Assembly (NCBI GenBank): GCA_013289955.1
Contig: JABCYZ010000019.1
Location: forward strand, 28,090 to 92,089
Reading direction: 5' to 3'
DNA: 64,000 nt
Source of the DNA: Acidobacteriota bacterium
GTDB taxonomy: Bacteria; Acidobacteriota; Terriglobia; Acidiferrales; UBA7541
The notes under the pieces were generated by a model. That model saw only the letters and a program-made list of their open reading frames with translations, was not told where the DNA came from and made no database searches. This document shows positions 3,940-63,828 of the stretch, piece after piece (position 1 is the first letter of the stretch; every line of letters begins with the position of its first letter). A program made the translations under genes and the position numbers.

Positions 3940-4101
3940 ACTTACAGCGCCTGTAAGTATTTTAGAATCAACATCTGCAAAGACAGCTCCTAAAAAGCGG
4001 ATTCTAAAAGATTTAACCTCACCACGGCCTCGAGCAAATCCTGACGAAGGCGAGGCCATTCGGGAACGGCACTGTGTAAGATTGCGTGGGGATTCTTACA
4101 C
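3940..4101. repeat. Cluster of short inverted repeats in the alr-fic gap
   Basis: ACTTACAG-cgc-CTGTAAGT (3940-3958); TTTTAGAATC (3960-3969) / GATTCTAAAA (4000-4009); GGCCTCG..CGAGGCC (4026-4057); GTGTAAGA-N12-TCTTACAC (4074-4101). Confidence 0.7.
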
Positions 4102-56745: not shown

Positions 56746-57597
56746 CTAGCGCAAAAGATCCTCGAGCTGGATGCGGGAATCGGTTCTGGCGTCGCGGTAT
56801 TTCACGATGACGGCGCATTGCAGGCTGAGTCCATGTTTCGCACCCACCGGATGCGAGACAGCGCGCGAGCCGGGAACCACGATGGCTTCCTGAGGAATGA
56901 CCAGCGGCAAAGATTCGCCGGCGGTGTACACCGCGTCGCGGACGAGATCGTAGACGGGAATCGAGCGACTCAGAATCGTGCCGGTGCCGAGAACCGCGCG
57001 ATGCTTCACGACGGTTCCTTCATACACCCCCGAATTTCCTCCCACGAGCACTTCGTCTTCAATGATCACTGGCATCGCGCCTACGGGCTCGAGCACGCCG
57101 CCGATCTGTGAGCCCGCCGAAATATGGCAGTTGCGGCCAATCTGCGCGCAGCTGCCGACCAGCGCGTGCGAATCGATCATCGTGCCGTCGCCCACGTACG
57201 CGCCCACGTTGACGAACATCGGCGGCATGCAAACGACGCCACGCCCGATGTAGGAGCCATCGCGAATGCTCGAGCCGCCGGGAACGATGCGAATTCCGTC
57301 GGCGGCCGTCACGGCGCGAACCGGATACGTGGACTTGTCGATGAACGGCTGGCGCAGGGGATCGACGGACATGTCGACGGCCACACCCATCTGAAAGCCG
57401 AGAAGAATTCCCTTCTTTACCCAGGCATTGACGCGCCAGCCCGTCGGTGAGGTAGCATCCGGCTCTGCCGCGCGGACTTCGCCGCGGTTTACGGCGTCCT
57501 TGAATTCGCGGAAGAGCCGGAAGTGTTCTTCGCTGTAGTGAGCCGGAGGCTCGTCAAACAGCTTTTCGATTTGCTGCTGCCGCATGAACCCGCTCAT
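56746..57597 (-). CDS. dapD: Tetrahydrodipicolinate N-succinyltransferase
   Basis: VNAWVKKGILLGF, CMPPMFVNVGAY, VGSCAQIG, IGGVLEP and hexapeptide repeats. Confidence 0.95.
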   Translation of the reverse strand: MSGFMRQQQIEKLFDEPPAHYSEEHFRLFREFKDAVNRGEVRAAEPDATSPTGWRVNAWVKKGILLGFQMGVAVDMSVDPLRQPFIDKSTYPVRAVTAADGIRIVPGGSSIRDGSYIGRGVVCMPPMFVNVGAYVGDGTMIDSHALVGSCAQIGRNCHISAGSQIGGVLEPVGAMPVIIEDEVLVGGNSGVYEGTVVKHRAVLGTGTILSRSIPVYDLVRDAVYTAGESLPLVIPQEAIVVPGSRAVSHPVGAKHGLSLQCAVIVKYRDARTDSRIQLEDLLR

Positions 57598-58532
57598 GCG
57601 GCGGCGTGAGCGGCCGCATGGGACAGTGTGGCGGCTTCATCGGCAGGTGCGGCAGCCGTGACCAGATGGAGCGATTCGAGCACGGAGCGAATGCGCACTG
57701 CGCTTTCCGCTTTCGGCCTAACGAGGGGGAGACGCCACACCGGTTCGAGCAAACCCATCTGCGCCATGGCTGCTTTCACCGGGATGGGATTCGACTCGAC
57801 GAAGTTCACTTCCATGAGCGGATGTATGCGCCGGTGAATTTCCCGCGCGGCCGGGAAATCGCCGTCGAGAGCGAACCGCGTTAGGAGTGCCATTTCGGCC
57901 GGCATTTCGTTGGACAAGACGGAAATAACGCCGCGTCCGCCAAGAGCGATCAGCGGCAGGGTGATCGCGTCATCGCCGCTGATGACACTGAAATCGTCCG
58001 GCACGGCGTTGAGTATCGCCGACATTTGCGACATGTTCCCCGACGCTTCCTTGATGCCGACGATATTTTCAATCGCGGCGAGACGCCCTACTGTTCCAGG
58101 CTCAATGTTCACACCCGTGCGTCCCTGCACGCTATAGAGAACCATGGGGAGCGTAATGGCTTCGGCGATCGCGCGATAATGCTGGAACAGGCCTTCCTGC
58201 GTCGGTTTGTTGTAGTACGGCGTGACGGAAAGAATTCCGTCCGCGCCGATTTCCGCGAGTTCGCGCGCCAGCACGATCACTTCGGCGGTGTTGTAGCCGC
58301 CTGCGCCGGCCAGCACGGGCACGCGTCCCTTTGCCAGCTCGACGGCGATCTCGACGATGCGCAGATGCTCTTCGTGCGTCAGCGTGGGGCTTTCGCCCGT
58401 CGTGCCGCAGGGCACCAGAAAATCAATGCCCGCCTCCATCTGGCGCTTGATCAGCGCGCGTAGGGTGGGTTCATCGAGCGAACCATCGCGGCGGAATGGA
58501 GTGACGAGCGCAGTGCCTGTACCTGTAAACAT
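57594..58532 (-). CDS. dapA: 4-hydroxy-tetrahydrodipicolinate synthase
   Basis: ALVTPF, GTTGESPTL, PYYNKP, GIKEASG, SGDD and ESNPIPVK. Confidence 0.97.
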   Translation of the reverse strand: MFTGTGTALVTPFRRDGSLDEPTLRALIKRQMEAGIDFLVPCGTTGESPTLTHEEHLRIVEIAVELAKGRVPVLAGAGGYNTAEVIVLARELAEIGADGILSVTPYYNKPTQEGLFQHYRAIAEAITLPMVLYSVQGRTGVNIEPGTVGRLAAIENIVGIKEASGNMSQMSAILNAVPDDFSVISGDDAITLPLIALGGRGVISVLSNEMPAEMALLTRFALDGDFPAAREIHRRIHPLMEVNFVESNPIPVKAAMAQMGLLEPVWRLPLVRPKAESAVRIRSVLESLHLVTAAAPADEAATLSHAAAHAAA

Positions 58533-58655
58533 GGTGATTCTCCTTCTTTTTCTGAACGTCGTACTGCTTACTGCCAAAAACTGCGGATGGCGGCTGGGAG
58601 GCCGCCGCAACAAAACCAACGGCGCCGGCCTCACGGCCGACGCCAGGGAAACTCC

Positions 58656-59357
58656 TCAGAGTAATTCGCCGAGGATCTCCTTAAACTCGTAGAAACCTTT
58701 TTTCCCGGCGATCCAGCGCGCCGCTTGCAGAGCGCCACGCGCAAATCCTTCGCGGCTGCGCGCTGTGTGGCGCAGGGTGATGGTGTCCGCGAGCGAGTCG
58801 AACCCAATTTCATGCGTGCCAGGAATCGCTCCTGCCCGGTTGGAACTGAGGCTGATGGGCCGTGTGTAACCCGCGGCCTTCATCTGTTCCGCCAGTATCT
58901 TGAGCGTGCCGCTGGGGGCGTCTTTTTTCGCGGAATGGTGAATCTCCCAGCCCCAGGCTTCATACTCCGGGTGTTTGGCGATAAGAGCGGAAGCTTGCGC
59001 AACTGTTTCCAGGAAAAGATTCAGGCCCACCGAAAAGTTTGCGGCCCAGACGAGCCCGCTGCTCCCGTTGACAACCGCTTCCCGCGCCGCGTGGAGCTGT
59101 TCGAACCAGCCCGTGGTGCCGACGACCGACCTGACGCCGAGGGCGGCAAGGCGGCGGATATTTACCGGCGCAGCCTCGGGAGTGGTGAATTCAACGGCGA
59201 CGTCGCTCCCGCCGAGCGTCTCGCGGGAGAGGCCCTCGGCGCCCGAATTGTTGGCGCCAGAAAATCTTGCGCGGACTTCGAAGCCGTATTCCGGCGCGAG
59301 CCGCTCGATGAGCTTGCCCATTTTTCCGTAGCCGACGATGGCGAGGCCCTGGGTCAT
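58656..59357 (-). CDS. dapB: 4-hydroxy-tetrahydrodipicolinate reductase
   Basis: GYGKMG, VVGTTG, ANFSVG, EIHHSAKKDAPSGT and HTARSREGFARGA. Confidence 0.96.
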   Translation of the reverse strand: MTQGLAIVGYGKMGKLIERLAPEYGFEVRARFSGANNSGAEGLSRETLGGSDVAVEFTTPEAAPVNIRRLAALGVRSVVGTTGWFEQLHAAREAVVNGSSGLVWAANFSVGLNLFLETVAQASALIAKHPEYEAWGWEIHHSAKKDAPSGTLKILAEQMKAAGYTRPISLSSNRAGAIPGTHEIGFDSLADTITLRHTARSREGFARGALQAARWIAGKKGFYEFKEILGELL

Positions 59358-60376
59358 GCTTCGGCGCCTCCGGTCAGGAGAAGCTGCCTCGCCATGCGCG
59401 CGTAGATATCCACGGCTTCCGTCAGTTGTTTTTTCGGGATGCGTTCTTCGGCGGTGTGCGCCAAATGGATGCTCCCTGGACCGATCAAAAATGGCTGGCC
59501 CCACGCGCCGTTAAATGTAGGAATGTCGGTGGCGAAGGCGACGACGGTAGTGGGAAGTCCATCGAAAGCGGAGAGCCGCAACGCGGGCGTGTAGAACACT
59601 TCGCGGACTTCGGCGCGTCCCCCGGCCGCTGCCTGAACGGCTTGGCGAATTTCCTCGGGATTCCCCACCGTGCGAAACATGATTTCCGCCTGCGCGTGGT
59701 CGGCAACCACGTTTGGCGCGCGACCTCCGGCGATCGTGCCAATATTCAGGGTGCTCTGTCCCAGCAGCGGATCTTCCGGCAGCGGGATCATGCGAATGGC
59801 CCGCAAGACGTCGAGCAGCGAGTGGATCGCGGAGTGGCCCAGTTCGGGGTAAGCAGAGTGGGCAAGTTTTCCGTGCGCGGTAACTTCAAAACGCAGCGCG
59901 CCCTTGGAACCGAGAGCAAGCTGATTTTCGGTGGGCTCGCCATTAATCAGGAACCGCGCGCCACGCGGATCGGCGGCAGCCACTTTTGCGCCGGCGCTGT
60001 TGCGCTCCTCTCCGACCACAAAAAGCAATCCGAGATTTGTGACGCCGGAGTCGAGAAGCTTCCCGACGGCGGCAATCATCGCGGCGATGATGCCTTTGGC
60101 GTCGCAGGAGCCGCGTCCCCAGATGAATTCGGCATCTTCGAGGGACGGAAAAAACGGCGGCACCGTGTCCATGTGCGTCGAAAGCGTGACGATAGGTTCG
60201 CCCCAGGAGGCAAAAATGTTATCGCGGTCCGGCTCGACCGGAATGCGTTCGAGGCGGCCGGACGTGCGGGAGGCGAGCATGGACAGTTCGGCGATCAAGA
60301 AGTCCGCCACCTGTTGCTCGCGATTGGTCGTCGATTCGATATCGACAAGCGCGCGCGTAAGTTCAAAAAGATTCAT
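59354..60376 (-). CDS. M20 ArgE/DapE-like deacylase, probable succinyl-DAP desuccinylase by context
   Basis: THMDTV, GRGSCDAKG, VGEE, NGEPT and GSIHLAH; first gene of the riboswitch-led dap operon; ATGA-coupled to dapB. Confidence 0.85.
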   Translation of the reverse strand: MNLFELTRALVDIESTTNREQQVADFLIAELSMLASRTSGRLERIPVEPDRDNIFASWGEPIVTLSTHMDTVPPFFPSLEDAEFIWGRGSCDAKGIIAAMIAAVGKLLDSGVTNLGLLFVVGEERNSAGAKVAAADPRGARFLINGEPTENQLALGSKGALRFEVTAHGKLAHSAYPELGHSAIHSLLDVLRAIRMIPLPEDPLLGQSTLNIGTIAGGRAPNVVADHAQAEIMFRTVGNPEEIRQAVQAAAGGRAEVREVFYTPALRLSAFDGLPTTVVAFATDIPTFNGAWGQPFLIGPGSIHLAHTAEERIPKKQLTEAVDIYARMARQLLLTGGAEA

Positions 60377-60446
60377 TCGACCGGCTGTTTCTGGAGGGAA
60401 CGATACGAAAGGAAGGAACCACGAAGAAATGCTCGAGGCCGCTGCC

Positions 60447-60666
60447 TCTCGATAGCGCTCCATCCGGCTTTAGCACTGGCCATGGCTAAACGGCCATCTA
60501 AACGGATGACAGTGGACAGGCCTTAGACCTGTTCCCCAACCGCTGCGGCAACAGCTACCGCTGCGATTTCGGCGGAGTACAACAATCTGGCCCCTTTTGC
60601 CGCGGCCTCCGAAGCTGATCGGAACTGCTCGCCGGGCTACTCATGGCCTCCGCACCTCTACCAAGA
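60447..60666 (-). ncRNA. Lysine riboswitch (L-box) with enlarged P2 and P5
   Basis: Minus strand TAGAGGTGCG..ATGAGTA..AAAAGGGG..GCCGAA..TGGG..ACTGTCA..TGGAGCGCTA; 9-bp P1 TCTTGGTAG/CTATCGAGA; complementary L2/L3; lies upstream of the dap genes. Confidence 0.93.
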
Positions 60667-60719
60667 ACAATCCAAGTGTAGAAGAGCCGTGGGGAAAAAG
60701 CGAGTGGAATTTGGAGCGG

Positions 60720-61523
60720 CTAAAGTTCAAGCGGCTTGAGCGGAACCTCTTGCGTGGCAATGAGGAGTTCGCCGCGGAACGCACATTCGGCGGGGCGGCG
60801 ATCAAGCGCTTCTTCGGCGGAGAGGCGCGCCAGGTCGGGGTTGTTGTTTTCTTGCGACAAGTGCGCGAGGACAAGGTAGCGCGCACGCGCGTCAAAACCC
60901 TCGGGATCAGAAAGATATTCGCTGACGGCGTGATTCGAGAGGTGCCCGGTGCGGCTCAGAACACGCTGCTTGACGACCCACGGATAGGGGCCGACTTTGA
61001 GCATGTCCAGATCGTGATTTGATTCGAGCAGCAGACAATCGGCGCCGCGCAGATGAACTTTTACGAGTTCGGGCATGTAACCGAGGTCGGTGACGAGCGC
61101 CATCTTCGTGCCGTTGGTGCGGAACGTGAAACCGATGGGATCGGCGGCGTCATGCGGGATTTGAAAGGCGTGGACATCGATATCGCCAATCGTGAAGTGC
61201 TGGCCAGCCTGAATGGTCTCCACGCCGCGCAACCTCGTCGCGAGGCGGTCGGGCAGGGCGCGGTGCAGCGCGTCCATGGTCTGTTCGGTTACATAGAGAG
61301 GCGCCTTCCAAAGGCCGAGCATTTGCGGAAGGCCGTTGCAATGGTCGCTATGTTCGTGGGAGATAAGGATGCCGTCGATGCGGTCAACGTTTTGTTCGAT
61401 GGCCGCGAGGCGGGCTAAAGTTTCTCGTTTGCCGAGGCCGCAGTCCACAAGGAGTCGGGTGCGCGGCGTCTCGAGCAGTGTGATATTGCCCGAGCTGCCT
61501 GACGCCAAAATGGAAACCCGCAA
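60720..61523 (-). CDS. Metallo-beta-lactamase-fold hydrolase (YycJ/WalJ-like)
   Basis: LASGSSGN, SHEHSDH, PHDAADP, TDLG, LESNHD, GHLSN and AHLSQENN. Likely TTG start at 61523. Confidence 0.9.
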   Translation of the reverse strand: MRVSILASGSSGNITLLETPRTRLLVDCGLGKRETLARLAAIEQNVDRIDGILISHEHSDHCNGLPQMLGLWKAPLYVTEQTMDALHRALPDRLATRLRGVETIQAGQHFTIGDIDVHAFQIPHDAADPIGFTFRTNGTKMALVTDLGYMPELVKVHLRGADCLLLESNHDLDMLKVGPYPWVVKQRVLSRTGHLSNHAVSEYLSDPEGFDARARYLVLAHLSQENNNPDLARLSAEEALDRRPAECAFRGELLIATQEVPLKPLEL

Positions 61524-61722
61524 GCCGATCGGTTTCTCCTCGTGACTGCCGGAAATAGACCGCAGGGCTTTCTGGACTTCGGCCTGCGCTTCAGTGAAAA
61601 CTAATTTGAGAATGATGGCAGAGCCGTCTTCTGTCGTCAACGCTTACTATCGGCTGGAATTTTCACGTTTCACGTCCGCTATGGAAGACGGACTCGAGGT
61701 CGCTATTCTGTGAGTCGCCTTA

Positions 61723-63006
61723 CTAGCAGGACAGGCGGGAACGCTCGAGCGTGAAGCCGTTCAGCGGGCCGAGGACGGTTACGGCGATTTGGTCGGGGCG
61801 GAAGAATTCGCGGGCCAGGGATTGGACTTCGGCCAGGGTAACGGTTTCGATGGAGGCGAGGATTTCGTCGAGCGAATAAAAGCGGCCGAAGTAGAGTTCC
61901 TGGCGGGCCAGATTCGACATGCGCGACGTGGTGGATTCGAGCGAGAGCATCAGCGAACCCTTGAGATGATTTTTTGCGCGGGTGAGCTCTTCTTCGCTTA
62001 CGGCCGATTCCTTCATGGCGCGAAATTCCTTGATGGTGAGGTCGATGACCTGGCCGATGGTTTCTTTCGCTGTGCCGGCGTAAACGGTGAACATGCCGGC
62101 GTCGGAATAGGGCGTGAGCTCGCTGAAGACGGCGTAGGCCAGGCCTTCCTTTTCGCGGATGTTCTGGAAGAGGCGCGAGGACATGCCACCTCCGAGGAGA
62201 TTGTTGAGGACGGCGGCGGCGAAGCGCGCCTCATGGCCGAGCGGCAATGCCGGAACGCCGATGCAAAGATGGACTTGCTCGAGGTCGCGCTTGGTTTCGA
62301 GATGGATGGGCGCTCGGGTCACGGGAGCGGTGTGATCTTCGAGCGTGCGCGCGGGACGGAGGTCGCCGAACTCGCGCTGGACGAGCTCCAAAACCCTTTC
62401 GTGAGTGACATTCCCCGCGGCGGTGATCACGAGGTGATCGGGAGCGAACCAGTCGCGGAAACGCTCGACAAGATGATCGCGGTTGAAGGCGCGAACGGTT
62501 TCGGGGGTGCCGAGAATCGGGCGGCCTAGCGGATGCTCGGGCCAAAAGCCGCGCGTGAAAATGTCGTGAAGCTGATACTCGGGATTGTCGAGGTCCATCT
62601 TGATTTCTTCGAGGACAACCTGACGCTCTTTTTTTACATCCTGGGAATCGAACTTGGGGCGCAGGACGAGATCCGCAATGACATCAAAGGCGATGGGCAG
62701 ATGCTCGTCGAGAACCTTGGCGTTGAAGCATATTTGCTCTTTCGAGGTGAAGGCGTCGAGCATGCCGCCGACGGAATCCATTTCGCGGGCGATGGCTTCG
62801 GCGGAGCGGCGTTCCGTGCCCTTGAAGACCATGTGCTCGATGAAATGGGCGAGGCCGTTTTCTTCCTGGACTTCGCGGCGTGAGCCGTTGCGGATCCACA
62901 CGCCGACGGAGACGGAACGGACATGGGTCATCGTTTCGGTGATGACCACAAGGCCGTTGCCGAGGACGTGCTTCTGGATATCGCGGACTTCCGTGGCAGT
63001 CGCCAT
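61723..63006 (-). CDS. M16 (pitrilysin-family) zinc peptidase
   Basis: Inverted zinc motif HFIEH, FKGT, NAFT-like DAFTSKE, SSRLFQNIREKEGLAY. Confidence 0.93.
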   Translation of the reverse strand: MATATEVRDIQKHVLGNGLVVITETMTHVRSVSVGVWIRNGSRREVQEENGLAHFIEHMVFKGTERRSAEAIAREMDSVGGMLDAFTSKEQICFNAKVLDEHLPIAFDVIADLVLRPKFDSQDVKKERQVVLEEIKMDLDNPEYQLHDIFTRGFWPEHPLGRPILGTPETVRAFNRDHLVERFRDWFAPDHLVITAAGNVTHERVLELVQREFGDLRPARTLEDHTAPVTRAPIHLETKRDLEQVHLCIGVPALPLGHEARFAAAVLNNLLGGGMSSRLFQNIREKEGLAYAVFSELTPYSDAGMFTVYAGTAKETIGQVIDLTIKEFRAMKESAVSEEELTRAKNHLKGSLMLSLESTTSRMSNLARQELYFGRFYSLDEILASIETVTLAEVQSLAREFFRPDQIAVTVLGPLNGFTLERSRLSC

Positions 63007-63103
63007 AACTCAATTGTGACACAGGCGGCCTCGAAAAGCGCACGGGTTAGAGTGCCTGAGTTTTCTACCCGGAGTGCAAAAGCGCACACCAGGATTGGCT
63101 CGG

Positions 63104-63700
63104 CTACAGCAACTTCTCGTCGGGGTGGAGCTTGCCGTATTCGCTCGTGTAGTGCAGGGGGACGTCGCCGTAGGTGCCCTTTTCGCGCGTATAGACTTCG
63201 CAACTGTCGAAAGGCTTCGAGTAGACGTGGATGCTGACGGCGCGTTGATGGAACTCGGCCAGATTCAGGACCTGGTGAACTGGTTCCAGCGGATTCACGT
63301 GGACGGGATGCGCGGCGTCCATCTCGTAGATTTCCGTGGGGGCGATTTTGCAGGTGCCGCAGCTTGCGTCTTTTTCATCGACGCGGAAATTCTGGATTTT
63401 CAGGCGGCCGATGGGAGCGGACATCCAGCAGTTTTGATCGCGATGATTGTGGATGCGGCTGTGCTGCCCGATTTCCCAGCAGATGGTCATGCACTCGAAG
63501 AGATCGTTCTTGAAAATGAGATTGCGCGTGTAATTCCCTTTCGAGAAGAAGAGATATTTCTCAATAGTTTCGGGGCGGACGGCGTGGCGGATGATGTAGT
63601 CCTGAACGTTTTCGAGGGAGAAATCGCGCTCCGGAATGGCAGCGAGGCCCGTGACCCAGTCGGCGATGGCCAGTGGCTCGACGGCAAGTTGTTTTGGCAT
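63104..63700 (-). CDS. Cysteine dioxygenase (eukaryote-like)
   Basis: YTRN, ICW, IHNH, VHQV and SIHVYSKPF; 3-His iron site; start ATG 63700. Confidence 0.9.
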   Translation of the reverse strand: MPKQLAVEPLAIADWVTGLAAIPERDFSLENVQDYIIRHAVRPETIEKYLFFSKGNYTRNLIFKNDLFECMTICWEIGQHSRIHNHRDQNCWMSAPIGRLKIQNFRVDEKDASCGTCKIAPTEIYEMDAAHPVHVNPLEPVHQVLNLAEFHQRAVSIHVYSKPFDSCEVYTREKGTYGDVPLHYTSEYGKLHPDEKLL

Positions 63701-63828
63701 GGTAAGAAAATTATACCGCCGAAAAGAAGCAGAGAACCACGCAAAGAAGAAATTCGTGAGCAAAACACGATATTCTGTAGGGTGATTCGCGGTGGAACGG
63801 CGCGAAGATCGCGCCCTTGGAATGATCT

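What the first reader, a model, noticed from the sequence alone, without database searches (positions are those of the whole stretch)
63104..63700. Bacterial cysteine dioxygenase with the eukaryotic Cys-Tyr crosslink residues
Seen: YTRN (Arg60 type), ICW, HNHRDQNC (Cys five residues after the second Fe-His, the position of mammalian Cys93), VHQV, and AVSIHVYSKPFDSC versus mammalian AVSLHLYSPPFDTC (Ser153-His155-Tyr157, Cys164). Known: characterised bacterial CDOs such as B. subtilis CdoA have Gly at the Cys93 position and lack the crosslink. Inference: a bacterial enzyme able to form the Cys-Tyr cofactor, relevant to the origin of the animal/fungal CDO.
Basis: partly seen in the sequence, partly recalled or inferred. 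Interest (0 to 1): 0.65.

Follow-up and report, generated by a model that had tools for sequence, protein, structure and literature searches.

The report
Acidobacterial cysteine dioxygenase with crosslink cysteine
A soil Acidobacteriota genome encodes a cysteine dioxygenase that carries the cysteine and tyrosine which animal enzymes fuse into a built-in cofactor; this is real and common in this phylum, but such "Cys-type" bacterial enzymes have already been noted in the literature.

Summary
Window 63104-63700 (- strand) is a 198-aa CDO_I protein. It matches mammalian CDO far better than B. subtilis CdoA, both in sequence (E 3.5e-18 against 0.06) and in fold (TM 0.82-0.91).

It is not a rarity. 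The Cys is invariant in 120/120 close homologues. About 70% of 130 CDO_I homologues read from 401 Acidobacteriota genomes have Cys93 plus Tyr157. The gene sits in conserved rlmN/CDO/M16 synteny in 80/80 related genomes. Its clade, with named members from four phyla, is strongly monophyletic and separate from the eukaryote clade. A sister relation to eukaryotes is recovered only weakly.

One clade-specific difference stands out: rat Pro159 is Lys or Arg here.

Novelty is limited. Schultz et al. 2023 and a 2026 Bordetella pertussis paper already report putatively crosslink-capable bacterial CDOs, and engineered Gly-to-Cys bacterial enzymes do crosslink. No native bacterial crosslink has been demonstrated in what I could read.

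Verdict: a new member of a known kind, of moderate interest.

The parts
63104..63700 (-). CDS of a 198-aa Arg-type cysteine dioxygenase (CDO_I), stop codon 63104-63106 included
   Evidence: AF2 model pLDDT 94.3. Foldseek top 23 hits are mammalian CDO1.
63428..63430 (-). Codon TGC for Cys91, equivalent to rat Cys93 (thioether donor)
   Evidence: Alignments. Invariant in 120/120 close homologues and in 116/117 profile hits.
63221..63223 (-). Codon TAC for Tyr160, equivalent to rat Tyr157 (Ser-His-Tyr motif and crosslink partner)
63443..63451 (-). His84-Asn85-His86, the first two iron ligands (rat His86/His88)
63275..63277 (-). His142, the third iron ligand (rat His140)
63524..63532 (-). Tyr57-Thr58-Arg59 (rat Tyr58/Arg60), which bind the substrate carboxylate and mark the enzyme as Arg-type
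63227..63235 (-). Ser156-Ile157-His158 of the Ser-His-Tyr network (rat Ser153/His155)
63200..63202 (-). Cys167, equivalent to rat Cys164
   Evidence: Cys in 49/50 rows of the bacterial clade and 20/20 eukaryote rows, but Leu or Met in the outgroups.
63215..63217 (-). Lys162 in place of rat Pro159, a signature of this clade (Arg or Lys in 99/128 sequences)
63701..63828 (.). Divergent intergenic region between CDO and rlmN. A TATAAT hexamer lies at 63710-63715 (- strand), 10-15 nt before the ATG, and there is no Shine-Dalgarno sequence.
   Evidence: The consensus promoter scan found no full sigma-70 site.
61723..63006 (-). Downstream M16 peptidase gene. It is syntenic with CDO in 76/80 related loci and is possibly co-transcribed.
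   Evidence: A 288-nt soil metatranscriptome contig, 100% identical, spans 62968-63237.

Best explanation
The gene encodes a native, vertically inherited Fe(II)-dependent thiol dioxygenase of the Arg-type, that is, an authentic L-cysteine dioxygenase. Three histidines (H84, H86, H142) hold the iron. Cysteine is expected to bind through its thiolate and amine, with its carboxylate held by Arg59, Tyr57 and Tyr160. O2 then converts it to cysteine sulfinate. Cys91 sits where mammalian Cys93 does, so during turnover it most likely forms the same autocatalytic thioether with Tyr160 and acts as a catalytic amplifier.

Shown: residue identity, fold, conservation, synteny and in-situ transcription. Inferred: the substrate, the activity and the crosslink.
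For: - Family: Pfam CDO_I, 63.8 bits against a cut-off of 23.
- Similarity to rat CDO1: 29% identity over 195 aa, with 7 gap positions, E 5e-22. Against BsCDO: 24% over 124 aa, E 9e-7.
- PDB phmmer: mammalian CDO at 3.5e-18, bacterial CDO structures at 0.02-0.07.
- Structure: AF2 pLDDT 94.3. Foldseek top 23 hits are mammalian CDO1 with TM 0.82-0.91 and rmsd 2.1-2.6 A; the MDOs and BsCDO score lower.
- Active site: all first- and second-sphere residues map one to one except Pro159 to Lys.
- Conservation: Cys91, Tyr160 and Cys167 are invariant in 120 close homologues. Cys91 is Cys in 116 of 117 more distant profile hits, and Arg59 and Cys167 are kept in all 117.
- Native gene: rlmN/CDO/M16 synteny in 80/80 and 76/80 loci. 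GC3 is 0.759, against 0.762 for the neighbour. It is the single CDO_I copy in the genome.
- Transcription: a metatranscriptome contig overlaps the 3' end of the gene.
- Crosslink precedent: putting Cys at this position in bacterial scaffolds suffices for crosslinking (PDB 4wvz 'artificial crosslinked thiol dioxygenase G95C'; title of Schultz 2023).
Against: - There is no biochemical evidence.
- The di-proline after Tyr157, which PMC8503633 suggests may orient the phenol, is Ser-Lys-Pro here. The local geometry of Tyr160 could therefore differ.
- I could not read model coordinates to measure the Cys91-Tyr160 distance.
- Gly-to-Cys variants of BsCDO and PaMDO lost activity, so Cys at this site is not automatically beneficial.
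- The genomic neighbours are housekeeping genes (peptidases, dap genes) and give no pathway support.
- No NCBIfam equivalog matches.
Confidence: 0.62

Rival explanations
1. It is a thiol dioxygenase, but its physiological substrate is not L-cysteine. Candidates are another carboxylate-bearing thiol, D-Cys, homocysteine, 3-mercaptopropionate or mercaptosuccinate. The clade-specific Lys or Arg next to the active-site Tyr would reshape the pocket.
For: Pro159 is replaced by Lys or Arg in 99/128 clade members, while eukaryotes and outgroups keep Ser-Pro-Pro. The CDO_I family includes 3-MPA and ergothioneine dioxygenases. There is no sulfur-metabolism context.
Against: Arg59 and Tyr57 are retained. 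The MDO hallmarks, Gln at position 60 and Arg near position 164, are absent, since the query has Arg and Cys there. The fold is much closer to CDO1 than to the MDOs (TM 0.82-0.84 against 0.65-0.70).
Confidence: 0.15
2. It is a genuine CDO, but Cys91 stays a free thiol. It would be conserved for another reason, such as second-sphere tuning, pH optimum or redox sensing, and no thioether would form natively.
For: Cys and Gly interchange at least 5 times on a 76-row tree, so the residue is not essential for the family. The missing di-proline might mis-position Tyr160. The Bordetella study also lacks direct crosslink evidence.
Against: Engineered Cys at this site crosslinks in two unrelated bacterial scaffolds. 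Cys is invariant, together with Tyr160, across hundreds of homologues.
Confidence: 0.18
3. The gene is a recent horizontal acquisition from a eukaryote, the explanation proposed in the literature for Cys-type CDOs of Gram-negative pathogens.
For: It is more similar to mammalian CDO than to characterised bacterial CDOs. The HGT idea is cited in PMC13689094.
Against: The bacterial clade (50 rows, support 100/95) and the eukaryote clade (20 rows, 100/99) are reciprocally monophyletic. Synteny is conserved in 80 species. Composition is native. The clade has its own signatures, Gln89 and Lys/Arg162.
Confidence: 0.03

Closest known systems
Mammalian cysteine dioxygenase type 1 (rat, mouse or human CDO1; PDB 2B5H, 2ATF, 2IC1)
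   Same: Same length (198 against 200 aa) and same fold (TM 0.82-0.91). It shares the 3-His iron site, Tyr58/Arg60, Ser-His-Tyr, Cys93, Cys164 and Trp77.
   Different: Only 29% identity. Pro159 becomes Lys, the Ser three residues after the second His becomes Gln, and there is a small insertion before His142. The crosslink is unproven here.
Bacillus subtilis CdoA/YubC (PDB 3EQE, 4QM8/9), the characterised bacterial Arg-type CDO
   Same: Arg-type enzyme with the 3-His site and Ser-His-Tyr. It is a bacterial cysteine-degrading enzyme.
   Different: BsCDO has Gly82 where the query has Cys91 and Met where the query has Cys167. It is 161 aa, without the N- and C-terminal parts. Identity is only 24% over 124 aa.
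Putatively crosslinked bacterial CDOs reported earlier: Bordetella pertussis BP2871/BP3011 (PMC13689094) and the set found by Schultz et al. 2023
   Same: Bacterial CDO homologues with Cys at the Cys93 position. In B. pertussis the Cys-to-Gly mutant is cysteine-sensitive.
   Different: Those are mainly from Gram-negative pathogens and were suggested to be host-derived. A Vibrio campbellii Cys-type homologue that I read (HDHLNTSC, Ser-Pro-Pro, no Cys164) falls outside the query's clade. The relation to the Bordetella proteins themselves was not tested, because I had no sequence for them.
Gln-type 3-mercaptopropionate dioxygenases (P. aeruginosa 4TLF, A. vinelandii 6XB9, R. eutropha 4QMA)
   Same: Same superfamily, with the 3-His site and the Ser-His-Tyr motif.
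   Different: The query has Arg rather than Gln at position 60 and Cys rather than Arg near position 164. The fold match is weaker (TM 0.65-0.70).

Membership tests
Cysteine dioxygenase type I (Pfam PF05995), Arg-type authentic CDO | Significant match to the family profile over its full length | tested here: met
   63.8 bits against a cut-off of 23; profile positions 14-169 of 170.
Cysteine dioxygenase type I (Pfam PF05995), Arg-type authentic CDO | Cupin fold with a 3-His facial triad (rat H86, H88, H140) | tested here: met
   H84, H86 and H142 align. The model has TM 0.82-0.91 to CDO1 structures.
Cysteine dioxygenase type I (Pfam PF05995), Arg-type authentic CDO | Arg60 (not Gln) with Tyr58 for binding the cysteine carboxylate | tested here: met
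   Y57-T58-R59-N60, invariant in the family.
Cysteine dioxygenase type I (Pfam PF05995), Arg-type authentic CDO | Ser153-His155-Tyr157 hydrogen-bond network | tested here: met
   S156, H158 and Y160 are invariant.
Cysteine dioxygenase type I (Pfam PF05995), Arg-type authentic CDO | Ser158-Pro159-Pro160 (di-proline) after the Tyr | tested here: not met
   The query has S161-K162-P163. In the clade this position is Arg 50, Lys 49 and Leu 19 of 128.
Cysteine dioxygenase type I (Pfam PF05995), Arg-type authentic CDO | Conversion of L-cysteine and O2 to cysteine sulfinate | not testable with these tools
   This needs an enzyme assay.
Crosslinked (Cys-Tyr cofactor) CDO, eukaryote type | Cys five residues after the second iron His (Cys93), together with Tyr157 | tested here: met
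   C91 and Y160. Invariant among close homologues.
Crosslinked (Cys-Tyr cofactor) CDO, eukaryote type | A thioether bond actually formed between the two side chains | not testable with these tools
   This needs an SDS-PAGE doublet, MS or a crystal structure. Model coordinates could not be read to measure distances.
Gln-type 3-mercaptopropionate dioxygenase | Gln at the Arg60 position and a relocated Arg near position 164/168 | tested here: not met
   The query has Arg59 and Cys167. The definition is taken from PMC8050391.

The most novel reading that the evidence does not exclude
The Cys-Tyr cofactor is not a eukaryote invention, and these bacteria did not borrow it from hosts. On this reading, the free-living bacterial clade (Acidobacteriota, Planctomycetota, Chloroflexota and a Deltaproteobacteria MAG) natively forms the crosslink and is the closest bacterial lineage to eukaryote CDO. 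Eukaryotes would then have inherited a Cys93/Cys164-type CDO from such bacteria, and Gly-type enzymes would be repeated secondary losses.
Probability: 0.3. Interest if true: 0.55.

Novelty: new member of a known kind. Interest (0 to 1): 0.38.

Why it matters
If the crosslink forms, this abundant soil-bacterial enzyme would be a natural prokaryotic model for biogenesis of the Cys-Tyr cofactor. In the papers I could read, no native bacterial crosslink has yet been shown biochemically.

The phylum survey also corrects a textbook simplification, "bacterial CDOs have Gly". In Acidobacteriota the Cys type dominates.

The result bears on where eukaryote CDO came from, and on cysteine-to-sulfinate or sulfite turnover by a dominant soil phylum.

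The Pro159-to-Lys/Arg signature offers a testable handle on how the Tyr is positioned.

Tried and rejected
- **First AF2 model.** A run on a shallow 43-sequence alignment gave pLDDT 62.5 and was discarded. I replaced it with a 128-sequence alignment.
- **NCBIfam.** No hit.
- **Papers not held.** Driggers 2015, Dominy 2006, Driggers 2016 and Schultz 2023 could not be read. What I say about Schultz 2023 comes from its citation in PMC13689094.
- **Bordetella supplement.** Not held, so the Bordetella sequences could not be placed in the tree.
- **Literature searches.** A search for '8QFL' was useless. A search for 'cysteine dioxygenase' plus 'Acidobacteria' found nothing relevant.
- **Sister relation to eukaryotes.** A first tree suggested that the query's clade is a well-supported sister to eukaryote CDO. 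Adding further acidobacterial lineages made the backbone weak or unresolved, so I do not claim a robust sister relation.
- **Promoter scan.** No full sigma-70 promoter was found.
- **Downstream genes.** Sulfite-oxidase-family and PLP-decarboxylase genes exist in the genome, but they are too unspecific to define a downstream pathway.
- **Earlier-findings look-up.** It returned only an unrelated window.

Full report
**What is there.** The - strand of window 63104-63700 holds an ORF of 198 codons, from ATG 63700 to stop TAG 63104-63106. The ORF lister's longer form, starting at TTG 63763, adds an implausible N-terminus. Homologues are almost all 198 aa, so I take the ATG as the start. Pfam assigns the protein to CDO_I (PF05995) at 63.8 bits against a cut-off of 23. 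NCBIfam has no model for it.

| Query | Rat CDO1 |
|---|---|
| Y57 / R59 | Y58 / R60 |
| C74 / W75 | C76 / W77 |
| H84 / H86 | H86 / H88 |
| C91 | C93 |
| H142 | H140 |
| S156 / H158 / Y160 | S153 / H155 / Y157 |
| C167 | C164 |

The best PDB matches are all mammalian CDO1 (E 3.5e-18). Bacterial structures appear only at E 0.02-0.07; these are B. subtilis CdoA and an actinobacterial ergothioneine dioxygenase. It aligns with 24% identity over 124 residues, with Gly at the Cys93 column and Met at the Cys164 column. Rat CDO1 aligns end to end at 29% identity.

**Structure.** A first AlphaFold run on a shallow alignment was poor (pLDDT 62.5). With 128 homologues of 41-88% identity the model reached pLDDT 94.3 and pTM 0.89. 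Foldseek against the PDB returned mammalian CDO1 as the top 23 hits, with TM 0.82-0.91 and rmsd 2.1-2.6 A over about 190 columns. Gln-type 3-mercaptopropionate dioxygenases follow at TM 0.65-0.70, and BsCDO at TMq 0.67. I could not read coordinates, so the Cys91-Tyr160 distance was not measured.

**How common it is.**
- The 120 closest database clusters (79-91% identity) all read HNHR[DG]QNC and S.H.YS.P...C.
- A profile search with more distant relatives gave 117 proteins. Of these, 116 have Cys at the Cys93 position, and all have Arg60 and Cys164.
- Named sources are Candidatus Acidoferrum/Acidiferrum, Sulfotelmatobacter, Angelobacter and other Acidobacteriota.
- 180 matching stretches in species-representative genomes carry a close relative.
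- In an even sample of 401 Acidobacteriota genomes, 143 have a CDO_I gene. I read 130 of the 147 matches. Of these, 91 (70%) have Cys93 plus Tyr157, and 83 carry the full Arg60/Cys93/Tyr157/Cys164 set. 34 have Gly and 5 have something else.
- Outside the phylum, same-clade 50%-identity clusters carry names from Planctomycetota, Dehalococcoidia and a Deltaproteobacteria MAG.

**A native gene.** In the 80 related loci, rlmN lies divergently upstream in 80/80 and an M16 peptidase lies downstream in 76/80. GC3 of the gene (0.759) equals that of its neighbour (0.762). The genome has one CDO_I copy. The downstream genes are peptidases, an MBL-fold protein and dapB/dapA/dapD, so the context says nothing about sulfur metabolism. 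A 288-nt contig from a soil metatranscriptome, identical to the window, spans the 3' end of the gene, the spacer and the start of the M16 gene. This suggests transcription in situ and perhaps co-transcription, although DNA carry-over cannot be excluded.

**Phylogeny.**
- The first careful ML tree had 76 rows. It separates three groups, each with strong support: the query's bacterial clade (50 rows, 100/95), a eukaryote clade (20 rows, 99/91) and Gly-type outgroups including BsCDO (98/90). The eukaryote clade contains rat CDO1 and the intact domain of multi-domain protist proteins.
- I then added the other acidobacterial lineages. Both clades stayed monophyletic (100/95 and 100/99), but the node joining them had only 87/33 support. 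Further Cys-bearing lineages appeared on the backbone.
- Neither group is nested in the other, which argues against recent transfer in either direction. The query's clade is the nearest bacterial group to eukaryote CDO in my sample, but that sister relation is not robust.
- My sample was drawn by similarity to the query and lacks fungi and most animals.
- Cys and non-Cys states change at least 5 times on the 76-row tree, consistent with a one-base TGC/GGC switch.
- A Vibrio campbellii homologue with Cys at the same position (HDHLNTSC, Ser-Pro-Pro, no Cys164) falls outside the query's clade. Cys-type enzymes therefore occur in several bacterial lineages.

**Differences from eukaryote CDO.** The clade has its own signatures. 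Gln replaces Ser three residues after the second His (H.H..Q.C). Rat Pro159 is Arg (50), Lys (49) or Leu (19) in 128 sequences, whereas eukaryotes and outgroups keep Ser-Pro-Pro. PMC8503633 suggests that the Pro159-Pro160 pair may help orient Tyr157. From my own recollection, not verified here, Ser158-Pro159 is a cis-peptide in rat CDO. The consequence of Lys162 is unknown. It is the main reason to keep an alternative-substrate or no-crosslink reading open.

**Mechanism proposed.** I propose an Fe(II) 3-His thiol dioxygenase that binds L-cysteine through thiolate and amine, with the carboxylate held by Arg59, Tyr57 and Tyr160, and converts it to cysteine sulfinate. During turnover Cys91 would be oxidised and couple to Tyr160, as in mammals (mechanism summarised in PMC11951088). 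Two engineered bacterial enzymes support the idea that Cys at this position is sufficient for crosslinking. One is P. aeruginosa MDO G95C (PDB 4wvz, titled 'artificial crosslinked'). The other is B. subtilis CDO G82C (title of Schultz et al. 2023, cited). Activity, substrate and crosslink remain inferences.

**What is already known.** PMC8050391 states the usual view that bacterial forms use an unmodified Tyr. PMC4019311 says only that 'many' bacterial CDOs lack the Cys. PMC13689094 (2026) reports that both B. pertussis CDO homologues have the Cys and that Cys-to-Gly mutants are cysteine-sensitive, and it admits there is no direct crosslink evidence. It also cites a bioinformatic analysis by Schultz et al. 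2023 that found putatively crosslink-capable CDOs in Gram-negative pathogens, possibly acquired from eukaryote hosts. The general idea is therefore published. I found no paper on acidobacterial CDOs.

**What my analysis adds.**
- The Cys type is the majority in a dominant soil phylum.
- This clade also shares Cys164 and the full-length architecture with eukaryotes.
- It is a deep, free-living, vertically inherited lineage, not a host-derived gene.
- It carries a Pro159-to-Lys/Arg change.

**Verdict.** This is a new member of a known kind. Interest is moderate (0.38), because it offers a convenient natural test of a bacterial Cys-Tyr cofactor and a lead on the origin of eukaryote CDO.

Noticed in passing
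window 63701-63720 (- strand); L003-L027 upstream of position 4001: A TATAAT hexamer sits 10-15 nt before the CDO start codon, with no Shine-Dalgarno sequence between them. It is kept at the same distance in 24 of the 25 related loci printed (one reads TATACT), and an exact TATAAT lies within 40 nt upstream in 32/80. This suggests a leaderless or near-leaderless mRNA.
   Followed up: partly
P0131 (Balamuthia mandrillaris KAL6052534.1, 924 aa), P0141 (Fabomonas tropica, 811 aa) and about 25 other 50%-identity clusters: Proteins of 400-924 aa, two of them named from protists, carry two to four tandem CDO_I domains. In most, the best-matching domain, usually the second, keeps the intact H.H....C and S.H.YSPP...C motifs; several other domains have lost the Cys or the Ser-His-Tyr motif.
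   Followed up: partly
L201, L185, L209, L202, L195, L187, L189, L190 (Acidobacteriota genomes): A second, very divergent acidobacterial CDO_I clade also has Arg60, Cys93, Tyr157 and Cys164. Its stem branch is long (about 2.2 changes per site) and its Pfam E-values are only 1e-9 to 1e-11. Its function is unknown.
   Followed up: partly
L213 2905-3507 (Vibrio campbellii NZ_CP050465.1): An unannotated 200-aa CDO homologue with HDHLNTSC (Cys at the Cys93 position), Ser-Pro-Pro and no Cys164. It lies on a 2-Mb replicon listed as a plasmid and groups with short acidobacterial Cys/Gly-type proteins.
   Followed up: partly
window 56746-61640 (- strand): Downstream of CDO and the M16 peptidase lie an MBL-fold hydrolase, an M20 peptidase (dapE-like), dapB, dapA and a dapD-like tetrahydrodipicolinate acyltransferase. 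Together they form a co-directional lysine-biosynthesis cluster.
   Followed up: no
L093 (G239:C26:361559-362062): One same-class genome has its Cys-type CDO gene interrupted by an in-frame TAA, which may be a pseudogene or a sequencing error.
   Followed up: no
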